Positions 9,344-26,199 of a DNA stretch of 46,553 nucleotides are shown here, piece by piece. Both the position numbers and the translations under genes were made by a program. How positions within the stretch are numbered: the stretch's first letter is position 1; every line of letters begins with the position of its first letter. The notes below the pieces were generated by a model. It was not told the DNA's origin and made no database searches. It saw only the letters and a list, made by a program, of their open reading frames with translations. The DNA comes from Escherichia phage vB_EcoS_IME542: sequence record MK372342. One strand, written 5' to 3'.

Positions 9344-10927
9344 TTACCCCAGCAGTCTTGGATTGATGTAAATTTTATCACCAATCAGGCACGTATAGTT
9401 TTTTTCGTCCAGCATCGGAATCAAATGGTCCTTAATACGAGTCATGATTCCAGCTTGAGCTTCAAAAGGTTTAACCTTTCGCGCAGCTTCATACAATGAG
9501 CGAACACCAACGACACCCTTACCATTTTTTCCTTGCTTAATCAGAATATCAACCAGCTTATTCATCTCAGCATTATCACCGGCGTGACCAGCGGCACTAG
9601 CGGATGACAAATAAGTCTTGCTTAGTTCGTTAAAAATCATAACCGCCTCCTGCATTGTCTCAAGCTCAATCTCCCTGGACTTCTGGGGGCTCGACCCTGC
9701 TGGTGCGAACCAGTTACGAATAACGTGCAGCACAGAGGCGATACGAATTGCTTGCTTATCAAACTTACCTAGAGCGCCACGTAACATTGTGTGAGAGTAC
9801 TTACCACCATCACCAAGGTGCGGTTCCATTTCCTGACGCGCGCGGTTCAGGTAACACATTGAAGAGGCACTTACAGTTAGTTTCACTTCGACTTCACTCA
9901 TAATCTCATGAACGAGACGGAAGTAATCAGCCTTCAGCCCACCGTCAATAGCCTCATATGTTGAGTCACCATTCTCGTCAACAAACACGCGGTCTCCAAG
10001 GAATGACTTCTCACGCACAAGCAAGAAACGTTCTGACACACCGATACCACGCGCACCAGCATTCATGATCGCGTTGATGGTCTCATCCTGTGCGATAACA
10101 GAGATGCAGCCCATAGCGACAAAGCTCATGTTATTTTCAGCGTTCGCACGCGCAATAGAAACGTTACCAGCATCCCATGCTTTCAGCACAAGCTCGCTGT
10201 TCGTTTTCTTTGAGCCATCACCATAGGTCATGCCAAGTAGTGAGTTTACGCTCGTTGCCTCATCAGAGATTACTGCGAAGTTGCCCTGTCGGTTGTTTAT
10301 TCGCGCAAGACCTTCCGGCGTGGTGTCGGATACGGGGAAAACGATATCGCACAGCTTTTCCAGCTTCTCTTCTAAATCTTCTTTTTCCTCAAAAAGTGAA
10401 GCCATCTCTGACGGAGATTTTTCCTGCTTCATCTCTTTGGATAATGCAGATAGTTTGGCAATAATCTTTTTGCGCTCGCGCTTTCGCACTTCATTAATCC
10501 GCTCAGTCTCAGCAATCATTGGGGCAATTGAAAGCGAGTTAATTGCTGATTTACCAGTTGATGGTGGCTGGCTTGTTACGACGTAGAGCGCGGTTGGCTG
10601 CTGATTTCCGTGATACTCAACAGTAAATCGACCAAGCATGGCGGCAGAAATGCACCCCAGAAAGTGCATATAAGCTGAAGACTCAGGGAATTGAACCGAA
10701 CGAGCAATGTTAGCTGATAACTTGCCCACAACATCAATATCATTACCTAGTGAGATTACAGGGTACTTATCATTTGCAGCATCAATCTCGACCGGAGCCT
10801 TCCAGAATGATTGGGACTGTCGATAACCATTAGCATTAATAGCCACGCGAAGCGGTGGAAGGTTGTCGGTCGCAGCAATTGCCATAACCTGCTCAACAGA
10901 TAGTTTATCTTCGTTGAAATCAAACAT
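9344..10927 (-). CDS. P-loop NTPase, putative replication-associated ATPase (deviant Walker A QPPSTGKS)
   Basis: Walker A-like PPSTGKSA and Walker B-like AVISDEAT; ATG 10927 with GGAG RBS preferred over track GTG 10969; 527 aa. Confidence 0.5.
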   Translation of the reverse strand: MFDFNEDKLSVEQVMAIAATDNLPPLRVAINANGYRQSQSFWKAPVEIDAANDKYPVISLGNDIDVVGKLSANIARSVQFPESSAYMHFLGCISAAMLGRFTVEYHGNQQPTALYVVTSQPPSTGKSAINSLSIAPMIAETERINEVRKRERKKIIAKLSALSKEMKQEKSPSEMASLFEEKEDLEEKLEKLCDIVFPVSDTTPEGLARINNRQGNFAVISDEATSVNSLLGMTYGDGSKKTNSELVLKAWDAGNVSIARANAENNMSFVAMGCISVIAQDETINAIMNAGARGIGVSERFLLVREKSFLGDRVFVDENGDSTYEAIDGGLKADYFRLVHEIMSEVEVKLTVSASSMCYLNRARQEMEPHLGDGGKYSHTMLRGALGKFDKQAIRIASVLHVIRNWFAPAGSSPQKSREIELETMQEAVMIFNELSKTYLSSASAAGHAGDNAEMNKLVDILIKQGKNGKGVVGVRSLYEAARKVKPFEAQAGIMTRIKDHLIPMLDEKNYTCLIGDKIYINPRLLG

Positions 10928-10939
10928 CTTAATACTCCA

Positions 10940-11000
10940 TCTCGTTAATATGCGGGCATTATATAACACCCGCTCAGTATGTCTTTATCTTTTAGTGCTA
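10940..11000 (-). promoter_or_regulatory. boxed promoter element (degenerate box, -10 TATAAT within hairpin loop GCGGG/CCCGC)
   Basis: Minus strand reads TAGCACTAAAAGATA ... GAGCGGG-tgttatataat-GCCCGC ... AACGAGATGGAG. Confidence 0.45.
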
Positions 11001-13221: not shown

Positions 13222-13285
13222 TTCTTCGTTTCGATGGAGTAATAATAGCAAATCACTCCTGATTGGTCATTAGCAAAAAGTGCTA
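13222..13285 (-). promoter_or_regulatory. boxed promoter element (perfect box TAGCActttttGCTA, hairpin AATCA/TGATT, extended -10 TGcTATTAT, CATCGAAACGAAG)
   Basis: Read directly on minus strand. Confidence 0.55.
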
Positions 13286-13305
13286 TTCGTTGGATTTATT
13301 GATTC

Positions 13306-13400
13306 TTGCAGATATTGCAATGATTCACCTCATTATTGCACATATAGCAATATTGTATCTGATGCAATGATGTTTTTGATTGTTGCGAATTTAGCAATTA
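13306..13400. repeat. cluster of short WWGCAAT motifs (ATTGCAAT, ATAGCAAT, GATGCAAT, TTAGCAAT, TTGCAC, TTGCGAAT) in divergent control region
   Basis: At least six copies within ~100 bp read directly; ATTGCAAT is itself palindromic. Confidence 0.45.
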
Positions 13401-13549
13401 TTTGTGTGGGAGTGAATGAATAGAGGAAGGACTACCATACAAGTTGATTTTGATTCTGGCTGAGCCATTTTGGATGTACACGTTACCGAAGTTATGTTGT
13501 GTAGATGCACCCACCCTCCGTAGGAATGCTGTACGCCTATAACGCGCAA

Positions 13550-13635
13550 TTACGCAATGGTTACATAATAATATCTATATATATCAACCTTTTACTTTAT
13601 TATTATTATTATTATTATATATATGTATATCTTGT
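13550..13635 (+). repeat. copy A of ~85 bp direct repeat with (TTA)7 microsatellite in divergent non-coding region
   Basis: TTACGCAATGGTTACATAATAATATCTATATATATCAACCTTTTACT(TTA)n... nearly identical to 40753..40835. Confidence 0.7.
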
Positions 13636-13800
13636 ATATCTGTCATATGGGGAGGGTCGATAGTTTTTTATGAAAATGACTATATTTATCTATATTAATA
13701 TATATAGGTATACCCCCGACATTTCCGCGGAAATTCATACACACGACATTTACACCGCTTCTGGCGCGGCTCTCAGAGTGGTTTGGCGTATCTGGCTGAA

Positions 13801-13846
13801 AATAACATGAGATAACACTTGATAACATGTAGATGTGTGATACTAT
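13801..13846 (+). promoter_or_regulatory. candidate early promoter: three phased 10-bp repeats (AATAACATGA GATAACACTT GATAACATGT), -35 TTGATA, 16 nt spacer, extended -10 TGaTACTAT
   Basis: Read directly; about 40 nt upstream of RBS AGGAG and start 13889. Confidence 0.5.
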
Positions 13847-13888: not shown

Positions 13889-14407
13889 ATGTCAGAACGT
13901 AAAGAAGCAGTAAGTCTTGGTGAAGTAGCTCGCTACATGGCGACTCAGGCTTTAAATAGCGACACGAAATCATTTGCAGTACCAGTGCGTATGATTGTTC
14001 GCCAGGTGTACGGGCTTAGCAAGGAGGAAATTAGCAAGGTTTATGATGAAGACCTTAAGCCGGATGGTAAGTACAATCTCAATAAGCTGAAGTCCTCATA
14101 CGTTTCAAACACAGTAAGTCGCATGCCTGAAATTAAGGCTGCAAACGTCAGGTCCATGTTCTCGATAAAGGATATGGAGTTTAATGGTGAGGAGGTTCGT
14201 TCTGCGGTAATCTCGCTTGTTCCTGGTGCAATCAATCATGGCTCACGAAGCAAAGCAGGGGAAGAGAGGGAGGCGGCTATCATTGAGAAGTTCAAGAAGC
14301 GACTTCTTGCAGTTACTCCGAGCGTAATCCACCTGAAAGGCGAGGAGCTTAATGGCGCAATGTTCGCACTAACCGCTTACCAGGAACTTATCAAGGAGAC
14401 CAAATAA
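13889..14407 (+). CDS. hypothetical early protein (first gene of plus-strand early operon)
   Basis: 172 aa; AGGAG RBS 8 nt upstream. Confidence 0.55.
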   Translation: MSERKEAVSLGEVARYMATQALNSDTKSFAVPVRMIVRQVYGLSKEEISKVYDEDLKPDGKYNLNKLKSSYVSNTVSRMPEIKAANVRSMFSIKDMEFNGEEVRSAVISLVPGAINHGSRSKAGEEREAAIIEKFKKRLLAVTPSVIHLKGEELNGAMFALTAYQELIKETK

Positions 14408-14941
14408 TGGGAATGTTTGATTTCAATGATGTGAAGCTAAGTGGCGAGGAAATCGTAAGAATTGCGCAGCGTGATGGTTACTCAATTCTTCGCGTGGCAA
14501 TCAGTAATAACTGATATCGGCAAACTCAGCGCTTCTGGGGTCGCCCTGATGCATCGTCAATCTACAAAGGTAGCGAGCATGCGGTTCTTGTTAATCTAAT
14601 TAGGAAAATGGGAAGAAACGGGAAAAGGGGTGCTTGGTGTTAGGTCATTATACGAAGGCCTCAGGAAATCAAAACCAGTTGATTCACGTAATGTCAGACT
14701 AATGGCGAGGCTTCAGGAGGGACTTATCCCAGACCTAGAGAAGATGAATCTCGTCTGCATGATTGGTGATAAGATTTATGTTCACCCTGCAATCCTTGAT
14801 GAGTGTTGGGAACCTAACTTCAAAGTATACGAAGGTGAGCATCCTAGTAGACTACCATACCACTTGCGTTACAGTGAGGAGGAGGTTGAGATGGCTATGA
14901 AGTTCTATCGGAAAGCTAAATTACTCCTGACTGGGAAATAG
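14407..14941 (+). pseudogene. disrupted, internally deleted paralogue of the P-loop ATPase gene (9344..10927): N-terminal and C-terminal homology only, in-frame TGA and a frameshift
   Basis: MGMFDFNDVKLSGEEIVRIAQRDGYSILRVAISNN-stop-YRQTQRFWGRP matches ATPase N-terminus MFDFNEDKLSVEQVMAIAATDNLPPLRVAINANGYRQSQSFWKAP; GVRSLYEGLRKSKP...LVCMIGDKIYVHP matches ATPase C-terminus GVRSLYEAARKVKP...YTCLIGDKIYINP. Confidence 0.5.
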
Positions 14942-17665: not shown

Positions 17666-17740
17666 GCTCTGTTAGCTTAATGGAGAAAGCCGCAGCCTTC
17701 TAAGCTGTTGATGGTGGTTCAACTCCACCACGGAGCGCCA
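17666..17740 (+). tRNA. tRNA-Arg (anticodon UCU), CCA encoded
   Basis: Hand-folded cloverleaf: acceptor GCTCTGT/ACGGAGC, D-arm GCTT-AATGGAGA-AAGC, anticodon stem GCAGC/GCTGT with loop CTTCTAA, T-arm GGTGG-TTCAACT-CCACC, discriminator G, CCA. Confidence 0.7.
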
Positions 17741-23322: not shown

Positions 23323-23793
23323 ATGGCAATTCGTTCTGTAGCTCTGGCAGGTATGGTAGCTGATACTTCCCTGTATAATATCGATGGCGCTTGTGTAGTT
23401 GGTGGCACTGCTCCAATCAATGTCGGTGTGGCTGTTAAAGTTTACCCAGCACCACTAATCGATGGTCACAAAGTTGTGGTCGCTACTGGCATCGCAGCTA
23501 ACCAGGCTGTCGGCGTAGTTGTTAACTCTCATTACGAGACTCCAGACGGCACCGCTAAAGCGAAGGAAGCCGTTAACGTAATGACTGATGGTAGAATTTG
23601 GATGCGCACCACCCTTACAAGAGCGCCAACATTTGGTGCTCCTGTACTGGTAAGCGCTACTGGCGTTGTAGGCGATTCTGGTGCAGCAACTGGCTGGACC
23701 TTCGCTGGCGGCTTCATTCCTAACACTGGCACTAAGCCGCAAGACCTTAGCGTAGATGGCGCTTTGGTTGAGGTTCAGGTTAAACAGAAGTAA
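23323..23793 (+). CDS. putative capsid decoration or other abundant head protein
   Basis: 156 aa; strong RBS TAAGGAG; Gly/Ala/Val-rich; followed by strong terminator. Confidence 0.35.
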   Translation: MAIRSVALAGMVADTSLYNIDGACVVGGTAPINVGVAVKVYPAPLIDGHKVVVATGIAANQAVGVVVNSHYETPDGTAKAKEAVNVMTDGRIWMRTTLTRAPTFGAPVLVSATGVVGDSGAATGWTFAGGFIPNTGTKPQDLSVDGALVEVQVKQK

Positions 23794-24119: not shown

Positions 24120-25163
24120 ATGAAAGTCGAGTTTATGACAGATAGTCAACTTTTTGAGATTAAAACTATTGGTTCAATTGCCACATACTCAATCTTTGTT
24201 GATGGAAAGCTCTGCAATGCTGACGCAATCACTACCGCAAACGGAGAGGCTGTTAGCTGGATTCAGGTAAAGGCTAACGATGGAGTAATTCGAAAGGTAA
24301 GGCACGTTGAGATTTATGGCATAAACACAGCGCTTGGTGCAATCCAGGCAAACACGGAAGACACATTCTCTTCGGATATCAGCTCTGAGCGGCCATTAAT
24401 TTATCAGATGGGTGATAGTTACACTTATGGTACTGGTGCTGCATACCCAACTCAGGCTTATGTATCATCCCCAGCAATCAATGACTTTTATGCATATAGT
24501 CGCGCCCTAGGATTTGACGGAATTGCTGAATGGATCGGAGGTAGTGGGTGGAACAGTACTGGCGGTCAGTATCCAGCAACAAGGGTATCAACCAGGCTTG
24601 CTAATATTAACAGAAAACCATCTGCGATTGTTTTCGCTCTTGGTTACAATGACGCTGCCGCAATTAACTCTGGTACAAACAAAGAAAAGCTAGTAACCAG
24701 CATGATTGAAGCGGTATCGGCAGCCAAGGCCGCTCACCCAAATGTTCCAATCGTTGTAGTAAGCCCCGCCACTCCGAAGGGAATTACATCAAACATTCAG
24801 ACTGTTTATGACCTGGTTAAGGGTTTCTGCTCTAAGAATGGTATCGAGCTGCTCGAGGTTAGTAATGCGGTAACTAACGCCAATTCTGTTGTTTACACTG
24901 GCACGGATAACGTTCACCCTAACGGTCTTGGGCACCAACATCGTGGCTTGGAGATTGCAAGGTACGTCAAAAGGGTTGCTTTGTCTGGCGGCAGCCTTGT
25001 TCCGAAATTTACCTCTGGATATATTGTTAACTTTATCGAGAGAAACGGATTTTCTGTTGAAGTTAAATCGGAAACTGTTCAAGCTGAATCTCTTGAGGCT
25101 GCACAAAATATCATCAAGTCACGAGCTGAAGCTAACGGCTCTATAATGATTGAAATCGTTTAA
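24120..25163 (+). CDS. SGNH/GDSL-family hydrolase (esterase) with N-terminal non-catalytic domain
   Basis: Block I YQMGDSYTYG, block III LGYNDA, block V DNVHPN; in-frame stop-free extension upstream to 23844 without ATG/GTG/TTG. Confidence 0.7.
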   Translation: MKVEFMTDSQLFEIKTIGSIATYSIFVDGKLCNADAITTANGEAVSWIQVKANDGVIRKVRHVEIYGINTALGAIQANTEDTFSSDISSERPLIYQMGDSYTYGTGAAYPTQAYVSSPAINDFYAYSRALGFDGIAEWIGGSGWNSTGGQYPATRVSTRLANINRKPSAIVFALGYNDAAAINSGTNKEKLVTSMIEAVSAAKAAHPNVPIVVVSPATPKGITSNIQTVYDLVKGFCSKNGIELLEVSNAVTNANSVVYTGTDNVHPNGLGHQHRGLEIARYVKRVALSGGSLVPKFTSGYIVNFIERNGFSVEVKSETVQAESLEAAQNIIKSRAEANGSIMIEIV

Positions 25164-25254: not shown

Positions 25255-26199
25255 ATGGCCATTAAATTTGATGCAGAACAAGCAAAAATCACCGCTCACC
25301 TCGAGCAAATGGGCGTAGATAAAGCAGATGCTGCTGGTATCTGGACTGTTAAACAGCTGACCGCATCACTGAATCGCGCTTACGAACAAGAATACGCAGA
25401 CAACTCAGTTGTTAATATCTTTCCTGTAACCAACGAAATTCCGGGTCACGCGAAATACTTCGAATACCCTGAGTTTGATGGCGTTGGTATTGCTCAGATT
25501 ATCGCTGATTACTCAGATGACCTGCCGCTTGTTGATGCTTTTATGACCGAGAAGCAAGGTAAAGTTTTCCGTTTTGGTAACGCGTTCCTGATTTCCACCG
25601 ACGAAATCAAAGCCGGTGCCGCAACTGGTCAGTCACTGTCAACTCGCAAACAGGCTCTGGCTTTCGAAGCTCACGATAACCTGCTTGATAAGCTGGTATG
25701 GCAGGGCTCTGCCCCGCACGGCATCGTAAGCGTGTTTGACCAGCCGAATATTAACAACGTAGTTGCAACTCCTAACTGGAGCGTCCCACAGAACGCAGTT
25801 AACGACGTTACCGCAATGATTGATGCTGTAGAAACCAGCACCCAGGGCTTCCACCATGTAACTGATATTCTGCTGCCAGCTTCCGCTCGCCGTGTAATGC
25901 AAACGCTGGTTGCTAATACAACCCTGAGCTATGGTGAGTTGTTTACTCGTAACAACCCAGGTGTAACCCTGCGCTTTATGCAGTTCCTGGACAACTACGA
26001 TGGCGCAGGCGGTAAAGCTGCACTGGCGTTTGAAAAGGATCCGCTCAACATGAGCATCGAGATTCCGGAAGCGACGAACGTGCTACCTGGTCAACCTAAG
26101 GATTTGCATTTTAAATATCCTGTAACTTCCAAGGCAACTGGCTTGATTGTATACCGCCCTCTGACAATGGCAGTAATCAAAGGCATCACCTTCGCTTAA
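25255..26199 (+). CDS. major capsid protein (putative)
   Basis: 314 aa; position in head module; GGAATAAAC RBS; strong terminator after; call not motif-based. Confidence 0.65.
   Translation: MAIKFDAEQAKITAHLEQMGVDKADAAGIWTVKQLTASLNRAYEQEYADNSVVNIFPVTNEIPGHAKYFEYPEFDGVGIAQIIADYSDDLPLVDAFMTEKQGKVFRFGNAFLISTDEIKAGAATGQSLSTRKQALAFEAHDNLLDKLVWQGSAPHGIVSVFDQPNINNVVATPNWSVPQNAVNDVTAMIDAVETSTQGFHHVTDILLPASARRVMQTLVANTTLSYGELFTRNNPGVTLRFMQFLDNYDGAGGKAALAFEKDPLNMSIEIPEATNVLPGQPKDLHFKYPVTSKATGLIVYRPLTMAVIKGITFA

What the first reader, a model, noticed from the sequence alone, without database searches (positions are those of the whole stretch)
14407..14941. Disrupted, internally deleted inverted paralogue of the P-loop ATPase gene
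The segment encodes, on the plus strand, clear homologues of only the first ~60 and last ~85 residues of the 527-aa ATPase encoded on the minus strand at 9344..10927. The N-terminal part is interrupted by an in-frame TGA (RVAISNN-TGA-YRQTQRFW against RVAINANGYRQSQSFW), the C-terminal part is in another frame, and the ~400-residue ATPase core is missing. Amino-acid identity is only ~50-60 percent, so this is an old duplicate. It may be a decaying pseudogene, or the expressed terminal domains could act as a regulator of the full-length ATPase.
Basis: seen in the sequence. Interest (0 to 1): 0.6.

Follow-up and report, generated by a model that had tools for sequence, protein, structure and literature searches.

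The report
Broken copy of helicase-ends mini-gene
This stretch is a recently inactivated copy of a small, conserved phage gene whose protein consists of just the two end domains of the phage's own replication helicase; the broken copy is ordinary, but the gene family behind it has no known function and is lost repeatedly.

Summary
Window 14407..14941 (+) matches only the first ~45 and last ~75 residues of the 527-aa DUF3987 helicase at 9344..10927 (-) (tblastn E=3e-10 and 3e-15). It has an in-frame TGA at 14512-14514 and a +1 frame change near 14620-14630.

The missing ATPase core is not decay. Related Braunvirinae (T1-like) phages carry an intact ~175-aa gene at the same position, directly after the DUF7174 gene. 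This family is phrog_7327. At least 113 intact protein clusters exist, and pairwise dN/dS is 0.09-0.38.

The intact protein has three parts:
- an N-terminal three-helix domain and a winged-helix domain, both paralogous to the helicase ends;
- a tail helix found only in this family.

The window copy has two lesions of its own: GGG->TGA at an invariant Gly, and one extra base in a G/A run. It is the only broken gene among 60 compared with phage TR1. BFVD lists 35-aa and 103-aa "uncharacterized proteins" of phage vB_EcoS_IME542 that match the two ORFs, so the window is probably that phage.

Four other lineages carry independent stop codons and two have deleted the gene. Verdict: a pseudogene of a dispensable accessory gene. 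The family's function as a mimic of the helicase ends is inferred only.

The parts
14407..14941 (+). Whole inactivated gene, an orthologue of the ~175-aa phrog_7327 family. With the TGA read as X and one base removed it gives a 177-aa protein.
   Evidence: The repaired translation aligns end to end with intact P0114 (178 aa) at 78.5% identity. DNA alignment with three intact orthologues.
14407..14514 (+). N-terminal ORF of 35 codons plus TGA. Its ATG overlaps the TAA of the upstream gene (TAATG), and AAGGAG lies 8 nt upstream.
   Evidence: BFVD holds a 35-aa IME542 protein that is 97% identical to P0114 over 35 residues.
14512..14514 (+). In-frame TGA replacing an invariant glycine (Gly36). 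All three aligned intact orthologues have GGG here.
   Evidence: G36 invariant in 36 sequences; 98% Gly in 113 sequences.
14515..14619 (+). Continuation in frame +1 (codons 37-71): the end of the N domain, the linker and the first helix of the winged-helix domain.
14620..14630 (+). The run GGGAAAAGGGG, which holds one extra base compared with intact orthologues (AAC-GGA-AAA-GGA-GTG or CAC-GGG-AAA-GGT-GTG). It shifts the frame by +1, and frame +1 then ends at TAG 14641-14643.
14630..14941 (+). C-terminal ORF in frame +2: 103 codons, GTG start with no properly spaced ribosome-binding site. It encodes most of the winged-helix domain plus the family-specific tail.
   Evidence: phrog_7327 E=9e-33 and phrog_2373 (helicase) E=3e-5. 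BFVD holds a 103-aa IME542 protein.
14798..14938 (+). Tail (EPNFKVYEGEHPSRLPYHLRYSEEEVEMAMKFYRKAKLLLTGK) with no counterpart in the helicase. Its terminal helix is conserved across the short family.
13889..14407 (+). DUF7174 gene (172 aa), the upstream partner gene. It ends within a few bases of the start of the short gene in every locus examined.
   Evidence: Pfam E=1.3e-50. A DUF7174 homologue ends 0-8 nt before the short gene in 18 of 18 loci. It is retained where the short gene is deleted.
9344..10927 (-). Full-length paralogue: the 527-aa DUF3987 helicase (phrog_2373), an MCM-like AAA+ core flanked by the same N-terminal three-helix domain and C-terminal winged helix.
   Evidence: Pfam PF13148 E=1.4e-39. 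PHROG E=2e-252. AF2 pLDDT 88, pTM 0.86. Foldseek best hits are MCM subunits, E=5e-5.
13819..13846 (+). Promoter-like site (TTGATA, 16 nt, TG, TACTAT) in front of the DUF7174 and short-gene pair.
   Evidence: Consensus scan only. The number of sites is not above the shuffled expectation.

Best explanation
The segment is a recently inactivated copy (pseudogene) of a conserved accessory early gene of Braunvirinae (T1-like) phages, family phrog_7327.

The intact gene encodes a ~175-aa protein with three parts: (i) an N-terminal three-helix domain and (ii) a winged-helix domain, both paralogous to the two ends of the phage's own MCM-like DUF3987 helicase, and (iii) a family-specific tail helix. The absent ATPase core is the ancestral, selected architecture, not decay.

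This window is probably phage vB_EcoS_IME542. Here two lineage-specific lesions abolish the full-length product: GGG->TGA at the invariant Gly36, and one extra base in the G/A run at codons 72-75. What remains translatable is a 35-aa peptide coupled to the DUF7174 gene. A 103-aa winged-helix-plus-tail fragment could be made at best inefficiently, from a GTG without a usable ribosome-binding site.

Shown: the homology, the lesions, the conservation of intact orthologues and the recurrent loss in other phages.

Inferred: the intact protein acts by mimicking the helicase's terminal domains. It would occupy whatever DNA site or protein partner those domains contact and so modulate helicase loading or activity. 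It is dispensable for growth on laboratory hosts.
For: Homology: E=3e-10 and 3e-15; reciprocal PHROG hits; hhalign 99.5%.

Intact orthologues: ~175-aa ORFs at the same position in TR1, RobRod40, BEK6 and JeanPiccard, in metagenomic contigs with the same gene order and in further viral contigs. 113 intact 172-179-aa protein clusters.

Selection: pairwise dN/dS is 0.09-0.38.

Lesions: both are absent from all three aligned intact orthologues, and the TGA replaces an invariant Gly.

Data quality: it is the only gene split or interrupted among 60 genes shared with TR1, so the assembly is not generally error-ridden.

Structure: the short-protein model and the helicase model show the same helix/strand order at both ends. 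The helicase resembles MCM. A DUF3987 protein was shown experimentally to be a 5'-3' helicase with an N-terminal PriCT domain and a small C-terminal domain flanking the DUF3987 core (PMC11724360).

Dispensability: independent stop codons in EC3a, DTL, the vB_EcoS-12210 group and OzMSK. Deletion down to the last ~32 codons in AN_ECEAS and vB_Ec-G8. Frameshifted fragments in metagenomes.

Public record: 35-aa and 103-aa IME542 proteins exist in BFVD.
Against: No read-level data are available, so a sequencing error cannot be excluded for the 1-nt insertion, which lies in a homopolymer run. The window's branch shows no measurable relaxation of selection: dN/dS to its nearest relatives is 0.13-0.15, and the relative-rate comparison is confounded by mosaicism and by dS near 1. 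This means the lesions are young or undetectable as decay. Expression of the fragments was not tested. The proposed function of the intact family rests only on domain paralogy, and no interaction or DNA-binding data exist. The short protein does not co-vary with the helicase of its own genome.
Confidence: 0.82

Rival explanations
1. Sequencing or assembly artefact: the real phage has an intact 177-aa gene, and the TGA and the extra base are errors in the deposited sequence.
For: The frame change is a single extra base inside GGGAAAAGGGG, a typical homopolymer error site. Removing one base and changing one codon restores a full-length protein 78.5% identical to an intact relative. dN/dS shows no sign of long neutral evolution.
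Against: TGA differs from the GGG of all three aligned orthologues at two positions, which is not a typical sequencing error. No other gene among 60 compared with TR1 is interrupted. Real, independent disruptions of this same gene occur in at least four other phage lineages, one of them represented by 43 separately deposited genomes.
Confidence: 0.09
2. The locus is still functional. Either it works as a split gene (a 35-aa N peptide plus a 103-aa winged-helix/tail protein acting separately), or it is recoded by TGA read-through plus a +1 ribosomal slip at AAA-AGG, which would restore exactly ...NGKGVLGV...
For: The N-terminal ORF keeps a good ribosome-binding site and translational coupling. 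A +1 slip of tRNA-Lys on A-AAA-AGG, with a rare AGG codon in the A site, would regenerate the consensus sequence. The downstream sequence is still well conserved. Stop codons in other phages fall near codons 36-40 and near codon 141, which might leave usable domains.
Against: Neither lesion is present in any orthologue, so there is no conserved recoding signal. Two independent low-efficiency events would both be needed. The TGA is followed by T, which by general knowledge of E. coli termination is not a leaky context. The GTG at 14630 has its G-rich stretch immediately adjacent, with no spacer. The conserved internal Met68 lies upstream of the frameshift and now leads to an 11-codon dead end.
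Confidence: 0.06
3. One reading: a duplicated copy of the full ATPase gene that is decaying, with the ~400-residue internal deletion as one of the decay steps.
For: The paralogy with both helicase ends is real. The short family must originally have arisen from a helicase copy by loss of the core.
Against: The core-less form is intact, about 175 aa, under purifying selection and syntenic in many phages. It has also gained its own conserved tail. The deletion therefore predates the family's diversification and is not part of this copy's decay.
Confidence: 0.03

Closest known systems
phrog_7327 (uncharacterised PHROG family; e.g. TR1 UVD31736.1, JeanPiccard Bas02_0063, IME253 gp21, ESCO41 gp02)
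   Same: Collinear over the whole length (78.5% identity to the nearest intact member after repair). Same position directly after the DUF7174 gene, and the same three-part architecture.
   Different: The window copy has a stop at codon 36 and a +1 frameshift at codons 72-75, so it cannot produce the family's full-length protein.
DUF3987 (PF13148) helicases, e.g. the window's own 527-aa protein and the characterised PriCT-DUF3987 helicase AgaPH (PMC11724360)
   Same: The N-terminal three-helix domain and the C-terminal small winged-helix domain are homologous. AgaPH also has an N-terminal (PriCT) domain and a small C-terminal domain flanking the core.
   Different: There is no Walker A/B ATPase core and no Pfam DUF3987 match. 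There is an extra tail helix. The short family also evolves much faster: 34-80% identity among phages whose helicases are 87-97% identical.
MCM helicases with C-terminal winged-helix domains
   Same: The full-length paralogue's best structural matches are MCM subunits. The short protein's central domain has the H-strand-H-H-strand-strand order of a winged helix, and its weak Foldseek hits are winged-helix domains, including the MCM8 WH. From general knowledge, MCM winged-helix domains mediate loader contacts and auto-regulation.
   Different: Similarity is at fold level only (TM about 0.35; E>=0.05 for the short protein). No loader or origin is known for these phages.
Truncated paralogues or isoforms that titrate a full-length protein (plant microProteins, papillomavirus E8^E2 / E2-TR, Tn5 inhibitor protein). 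This comparison rests on my own knowledge.
   Same: A small protein keeps only the interaction or DNA-binding modules of a larger enzyme encoded in the same genome.
   Different: In the named cases the mechanism is demonstrated; here it is only inferred. This protein combines both termini and adds a new tail, and it is a separate, diverged gene on the opposite strand rather than an isoform.

Membership tests
phrog_7327 short helicase-ends family | Significant profile match | tested here: met
   The 103-aa ORF scores E=9e-33 over profile positions 74-179, and intact TR1 scores E=4e-68. tblastn with P0114 covers residues 1-73 and 67-177.
phrog_7327 short helicase-ends family | Position immediately downstream of the DUF7174 gene, with overlapping or abutting stop and start | tested here: met
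   TAATG overlap at 14405-14409. The same arrangement is seen in 18 of 18 loci.
phrog_7327 short helicase-ends family | Uninterrupted ORF of ~172-179 codons | tested here: not met
   TGA at codon 36 and a +1 frameshift at 14620-14630. The window therefore holds a pseudogene member, not a functional one.
DUF3987 (PF13148) helicase | Pfam DUF3987 domain with the Walker A/B ATPase core | tested here: not met
   No Pfam hit for the segment. Only helicase residues 1-45 and 453-526 have counterparts.
DUF3987 (PF13148) helicase | Homology to the terminal domains of the helicase | tested here: met
   E=3e-10 and 3e-15; hhalign 99.5%, E=2.6e-22.
Pseudogene | Disabling lesions that are absent from intact orthologues | tested here: met
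   Both lesions are unique to the window among the aligned orthologues.
Pseudogene | Relaxed selection on the lineage | tested here: inconclusive
   dN/dS to the nearest relatives is 0.13-0.15. The relative-rate comparison is confounded. The window deviates at 11 of 93 highly conserved columns against a mean of 3.4, but about half of these are shared with its clade.
Pseudogene | No full-length product made | not testable with these tools
   Needs proteomics or ribosome profiling of infected cells.
Programmed recoding site (read-through or +1 frameshift) | The recoding signal is conserved in orthologues | tested here: not met
   Orthologues have a sense codon and an uninterrupted frame at both sites.
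Winged-helix domain | H-strand-H-H-strand-strand topology and structural matches to known winged helices | tested here: inconclusive
   The topology is present in a model with pLDDT 81. The Foldseek PDB hits are winged-helix domains (MukE, Scc1-C, cullin WHB, MCM8 WH) but only at E=0.05-2.

The most novel reading that the evidence does not exclude
The intact family (phrog_7327) could be a microprotein-like mimic of the two ends of the phage's MCM-like helicase. It might titrate a loader, primase or origin contact and so time replication. Alternatively it might act as a decoy for a host defence that senses the helicase termini. Its fast evolution and repeated loss in cultured phages would then reflect a conditional cost. 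The window's 35-aa and 103-aa remnants might retain part of that activity.
Probability: 0.25. Interest if true: 0.6.

Novelty: new member of a known kind. Interest (0 to 1): 0.33.

Why it matters
For this window, the result corrects the annotation. The two small "uncharacterized proteins" of 35 and 103 aa are fragments of one inactivated gene, not genes in their own right.

More broadly, it identifies an uncharacterised family conserved in the phage subfamily Braunvirinae as an ends-only paralogue of the replicative DUF3987 (MCM-like) helicase. The gene is always paired with DUF7174, evolves much faster than the helicase and is repeatedly knocked out or deleted in isolates. This gives a concrete, testable handle on how these T1-like phages regulate or protect their helicase. 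These phages include frequent contaminants of fermentations and members of the BASEL collection. The result also flags the gene as non-essential for engineering.

Tried and rejected
1. Internal start at the conserved Met68. The Arg66 codon is AGG in 11 of 11 sequences, giving AGGAAAATG. I rejected this as evidence, because AGG is used commonly in these phages, the spacing is too short, and in the window the frameshift lies just downstream anyway.

2. Co-variation or gene conversion between each short protein and the helicase of its own genome. There was no signal: identity to the own helicase was about the same as to other helicases. phiEB49 has a more helicase-like winged helix (70%), but not specifically like its own helicase.

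3. Branch-specific relaxation of selection in the window. The result was inconclusive, because dS is about 1 and the region is mosaic.

4. Exact-sequence look-up of the 103-aa ORF in public assemblies found nothing. A scan of viral contigs with it found only distant relatives.

5. Searches that returned nothing useful:
   - PADLOC, NCBIfam and Pfam gave no hits for the short protein or for DUF7174 beyond the DUF name.
   - A PDB sequence search with the helicase gave nothing significant.
   - Literature searches for DUF7174 found no papers. The DUF3987 and IME542 papers that were read do not discuss the short gene, and the search on Drexlerviridae escape mutants returned nothing that looked relevant from titles and abstracts.
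   - NC_048208 could not be fetched because it is not in the collection.

6. TGA decoded as Gly under an alternative genetic code. I rejected this: the other genes of the window translate normally with table 11, and the other disrupted copies use TAA, TAG or TGA at different positions.

Full report
**1.

The 541-codon stop-to-stop ORF at 9344..10969 (-) contains the 527-aa protein starting at 10927. This is a DUF3987 protein (Pfam PF13148, E=1.4e-39; phrog_2373 "DNA helicase", E=2e-252).

A tblastn of this protein against the whole window gives exactly two further significant hits:
- Helicase residues 1-45 match 14413..14547 in frame +1 (56% identity, E=3e-10). The TGA at 14512-14514 lies opposite a glycine.
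- The last 74 residues match 14573..14797 in frame +2 (48% identity, E=3e-15).

Nothing else in the window scores better than E=0.5.

**2. What the window is**

The window is an E. coli siphophage of Drexlerviridae, subfamily Braunvirinae. It is a mosaic relative of phage TR1. Many proteins are 99-100% identical to TR1 and the helicase is 96.96% identical, but the DUF7174 protein is only 42% identical.

Three lines of evidence point to phage vB_EcoS_IME542 or a near-identical phage:
- The TR1 paper names vB_EcoS_IME542 (NC_048208) as TR1's closest relative.
- That paper lists 96.96% and 91.89% identity for TR1 ORF18 and ORF19 against IME542. These are exactly my values for the window.
- BFVD holds two IME542 "uncharacterized proteins" of 35 and 103 aa that match the short-protein model. 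These are exactly the lengths of the window's two ORFs.

The deposited genome therefore carries the same two lesions, annotated as two separate genes.

**3. The missing core is not decay**

TR1, RobRod40, BEK6 and JeanPiccard have one uninterrupted ORF of 174-176 codons at the same position, directly after the DUF7174 gene. The two nearest relatives are metagenomic contigs with the same gene order, from the helicase through to DUF7174 and the short gene. They have intact 178-aa and 176-aa genes.

A search of 5.8 billion proteins returned 267 hits. Of the 120 listed, 113 are 172-179 aa long. The family is phrog_7327, of unknown function. It has no Pfam, NCBIfam or PADLOC model. An exhaustive profile search of 1.8 billion cluster representatives found only 46 proteins, so the family is narrow.

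In the INPHARED phage collection, 107 of 271 matching records have a near-full-length copy. The remaining records, from other Drexlerviridae, match only through their helicase. A DUF7174 homologue ends 0-8 nt before the short gene in 18 of 18 loci. Pairwise dN/dS across twelve copies is 0.09-0.38. The core-less protein is thus a conserved, selected gene in its own right.

**4. Anatomy of the intact protein**

An AlphaFold2 model of the closest intact homologue (pLDDT 81, pTM 0.68) shows three parts:
- three short helices at residues 13-43;
- a helix-strand-helix-helix-strand-strand unit at residues 57-125, which is winged-helix topology;
- a disordered linker followed by a terminal helix at residues 157-174.

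The helicase model (pLDDT 88, pTM 0.86) has the same three helices at residues 11-41 and the same unit at residues 451-521, flanking an AAA+ core. Its best PDB matches are MCM subunits (E=5e-5, TM about 0.35). hhalign puts the winged-helix blocks of the two families together at 99.5% probability.

PDB hits of the short model are winged-helix domains, but only at E>=0.05. A DUF3987 protein has been shown experimentally to be a 5'-3' helicase with an N-terminal PriCT domain and a small C-terminal domain flanking the DUF3987 core (PMC11724360).

The tail (14798..14938 in the window) has no helicase counterpart. Its final helix is conserved even in distant members of the short family.

**5. The lesions in this copy**

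I aligned the window with three intact orthologues.
- At 14512-14514 the window reads TGA where all three read GGG. This glycine is invariant in 36 aligned sequences and 98% conserved in 113.
- In GGGAAAAGGGG (14620-14630) the window has one base more than any orthologue. This moves the reading frame by +1, and frame +1 then ends at TAG 14641-14643.

Reading the TGA as X and removing one base gives a 177-aa protein that aligns end to end with intact P0114 at 78.5% identity.

Of 60 genes shared with TR1, this is the only one that is split or interrupted. Two other apparent stops are natural C-termini where the alignment ran on past the end. General sequencing noise is therefore unlikely, and TGA differs from GGG at two positions.

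Selection analysis cannot date the lesions. dN/dS to the nearest relatives is 0.13-0.15 at dS of about 0.9-1.1. The window deviates at 11 of 93 strongly conserved columns, against a mean of 3.4 in intact sequences, but about half of these deviations are shared with its clade.

**6. What can still be made**

The 35-codon N-terminal ORF keeps AAGGAG at an 8-nt spacing, and its ATG overlaps the DUF7174 stop codon, so it is probably translated.

The 103-codon ORF starts at a GTG with the G-run directly abutting it. The conserved internal Met68 lies upstream of the frameshift and now leads to an 11-codon dead end.

A +1 slip on A-AAA-AGG would regenerate the consensus sequence NGKGVLGV. No orthologue carries either lesion, however, so there is no sign of programmed recoding.

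**7. Recurrent loss**

Independent lesions occur in other phages:

| Phage | Lesion |
|---|---|
| EC3a | TAA at codon 37 |
| DTL | TAG at codon 141 |
| vB_EcoS-12210 group (43 deposited genomes) | TGA at codon 141 |
| OzMSK | two stops |
| AN_ECEAS, vB_Ec-G8 | gene deleted down to its last ~32 codons; DUF7174 retained |

Several metagenomic fragments are N-terminal pieces that run into the +1 frame near the TGGGG run at codons 44-45.

Among the roughly 21 distinct phage or contig lineages I inspected at the DNA level, 14 copies were intact, 5 were interrupted (including the window) and 2 were deleted. The gene is clearly dispensable on laboratory hosts.

It also evolves much faster than its parent. 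The short proteins are 34-80% identical among genomes whose helicases are 87-97% identical to the window's.

**8. Mechanism**

Shown: paralogy to both helicase ends, conservation and purifying selection of the intact form, tight pairing with DUF7174, fast evolution, and recurrent loss.

Inferred: the intact protein acts through the two modules it shares with the helicase. It would occupy the DNA site or protein partner that the helicase's N-terminal and winged-helix domains contact, and so modulate helicase loading or activity. Alternatively it could serve as a decoy for something that recognises those ends. I found no co-variation between a short protein and the helicase of its own genome, and no literature on the family.

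For the window copy, the most likely state is simply non-functional.

**9. Verdict**

This is a pseudogene (confidence about 0.82) of a known-but-uncharacterised phage gene family, not a helicase duplicate decaying by internal deletion. Sequencing artefact (about 0.09) and residual or recoded function (about 0.06) remain as rivals.

The window feature itself is ordinary. The family behind it, an ends-only paralogue of an MCM-like phage helicase that is repeatedly lost, is a modestly interesting lead.

Noticed in passing
window 13270-13410 and 13560-13712: The divergent intergenic region between the helicase-side operon and the DUF7174/short-gene operon has two notable features. One is a cluster of TTGCA/TTGCG-N6-9-AGCAAT-like repeats. 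The other is an extremely AT-rich (TAT)n/(TA)n block. In TR1 the homologous spot is annotated as the initial headful packaging (pac) site. The region is a candidate pac site, origin or operator.
   Followed up: no
window 24120-25163 (+): A 347-aa ORF lies between the head decoration/scaffold-like gene (23323-23793) and the major capsid gene (25255-26199). It has no TR1 counterpart. It contains a GDSYTYG motif near residue 97 and a later NVHPN motif, which resemble an SGNH/GDSL hydrolase. That resemblance is recalled from memory and was not tested.
   Followed up: no
window 17666-17740 (+): A single tRNA-Arg(TCT) gene. TR1 is annotated with tRNA-Arg-CCT at the corresponding place. AGG and AGA Arg codons are used heavily in the short gene.
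   Followed up: no
whole window compared with TR1 (L037): The mosaicism is sharp. The primase, SSB, recombinase, exonuclease, tail fibre and distal tail genes are 99-100% identical at protein level to TR1. The terminase, portal, head-tail connector genes and the early region at 13.9-16 kb are only 42-78% identical.
   Followed up: partly
L001 6340 (12210 group), L007 3205 (DTL), L005 1001 (EC3a), L040 (OzMSK), and proteins P0260/P0265/P0272/P0278: Independent disruptions of the short gene seem to cluster at codons ~36-47 (three stops and about four frameshifts, near a TGGGG run) and at codons ~140-142 (three stops), the start of the tail. This could reflect a mutational hot spot, selection for particular truncations, or detection bias.
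   Followed up: partly
protein P0269 (633 aa, from the representative search): The N-domain motif (LT-EE...A...GLP-L/I-R-A-x-S-x-GY-K/R-H-V) occurs five times in tandem in a large, apparently eukaryote-like protein. Each copy is followed by an FATAEEAALTYSR segment reminiscent of AP2-type DNA-binding domains. This hints that the helicase N-domain is a more widely used module.
   Followed up: no
L009 71-595 and 3350-3658; L013 2595-3092: The closest relatives carry HNH_3 endonuclease genes inserted next to the helicase and among the small leftward genes. These positions are empty in the window, so homing-endonuclease traffic may contribute to the mosaicism of this region.
   Followed up: no
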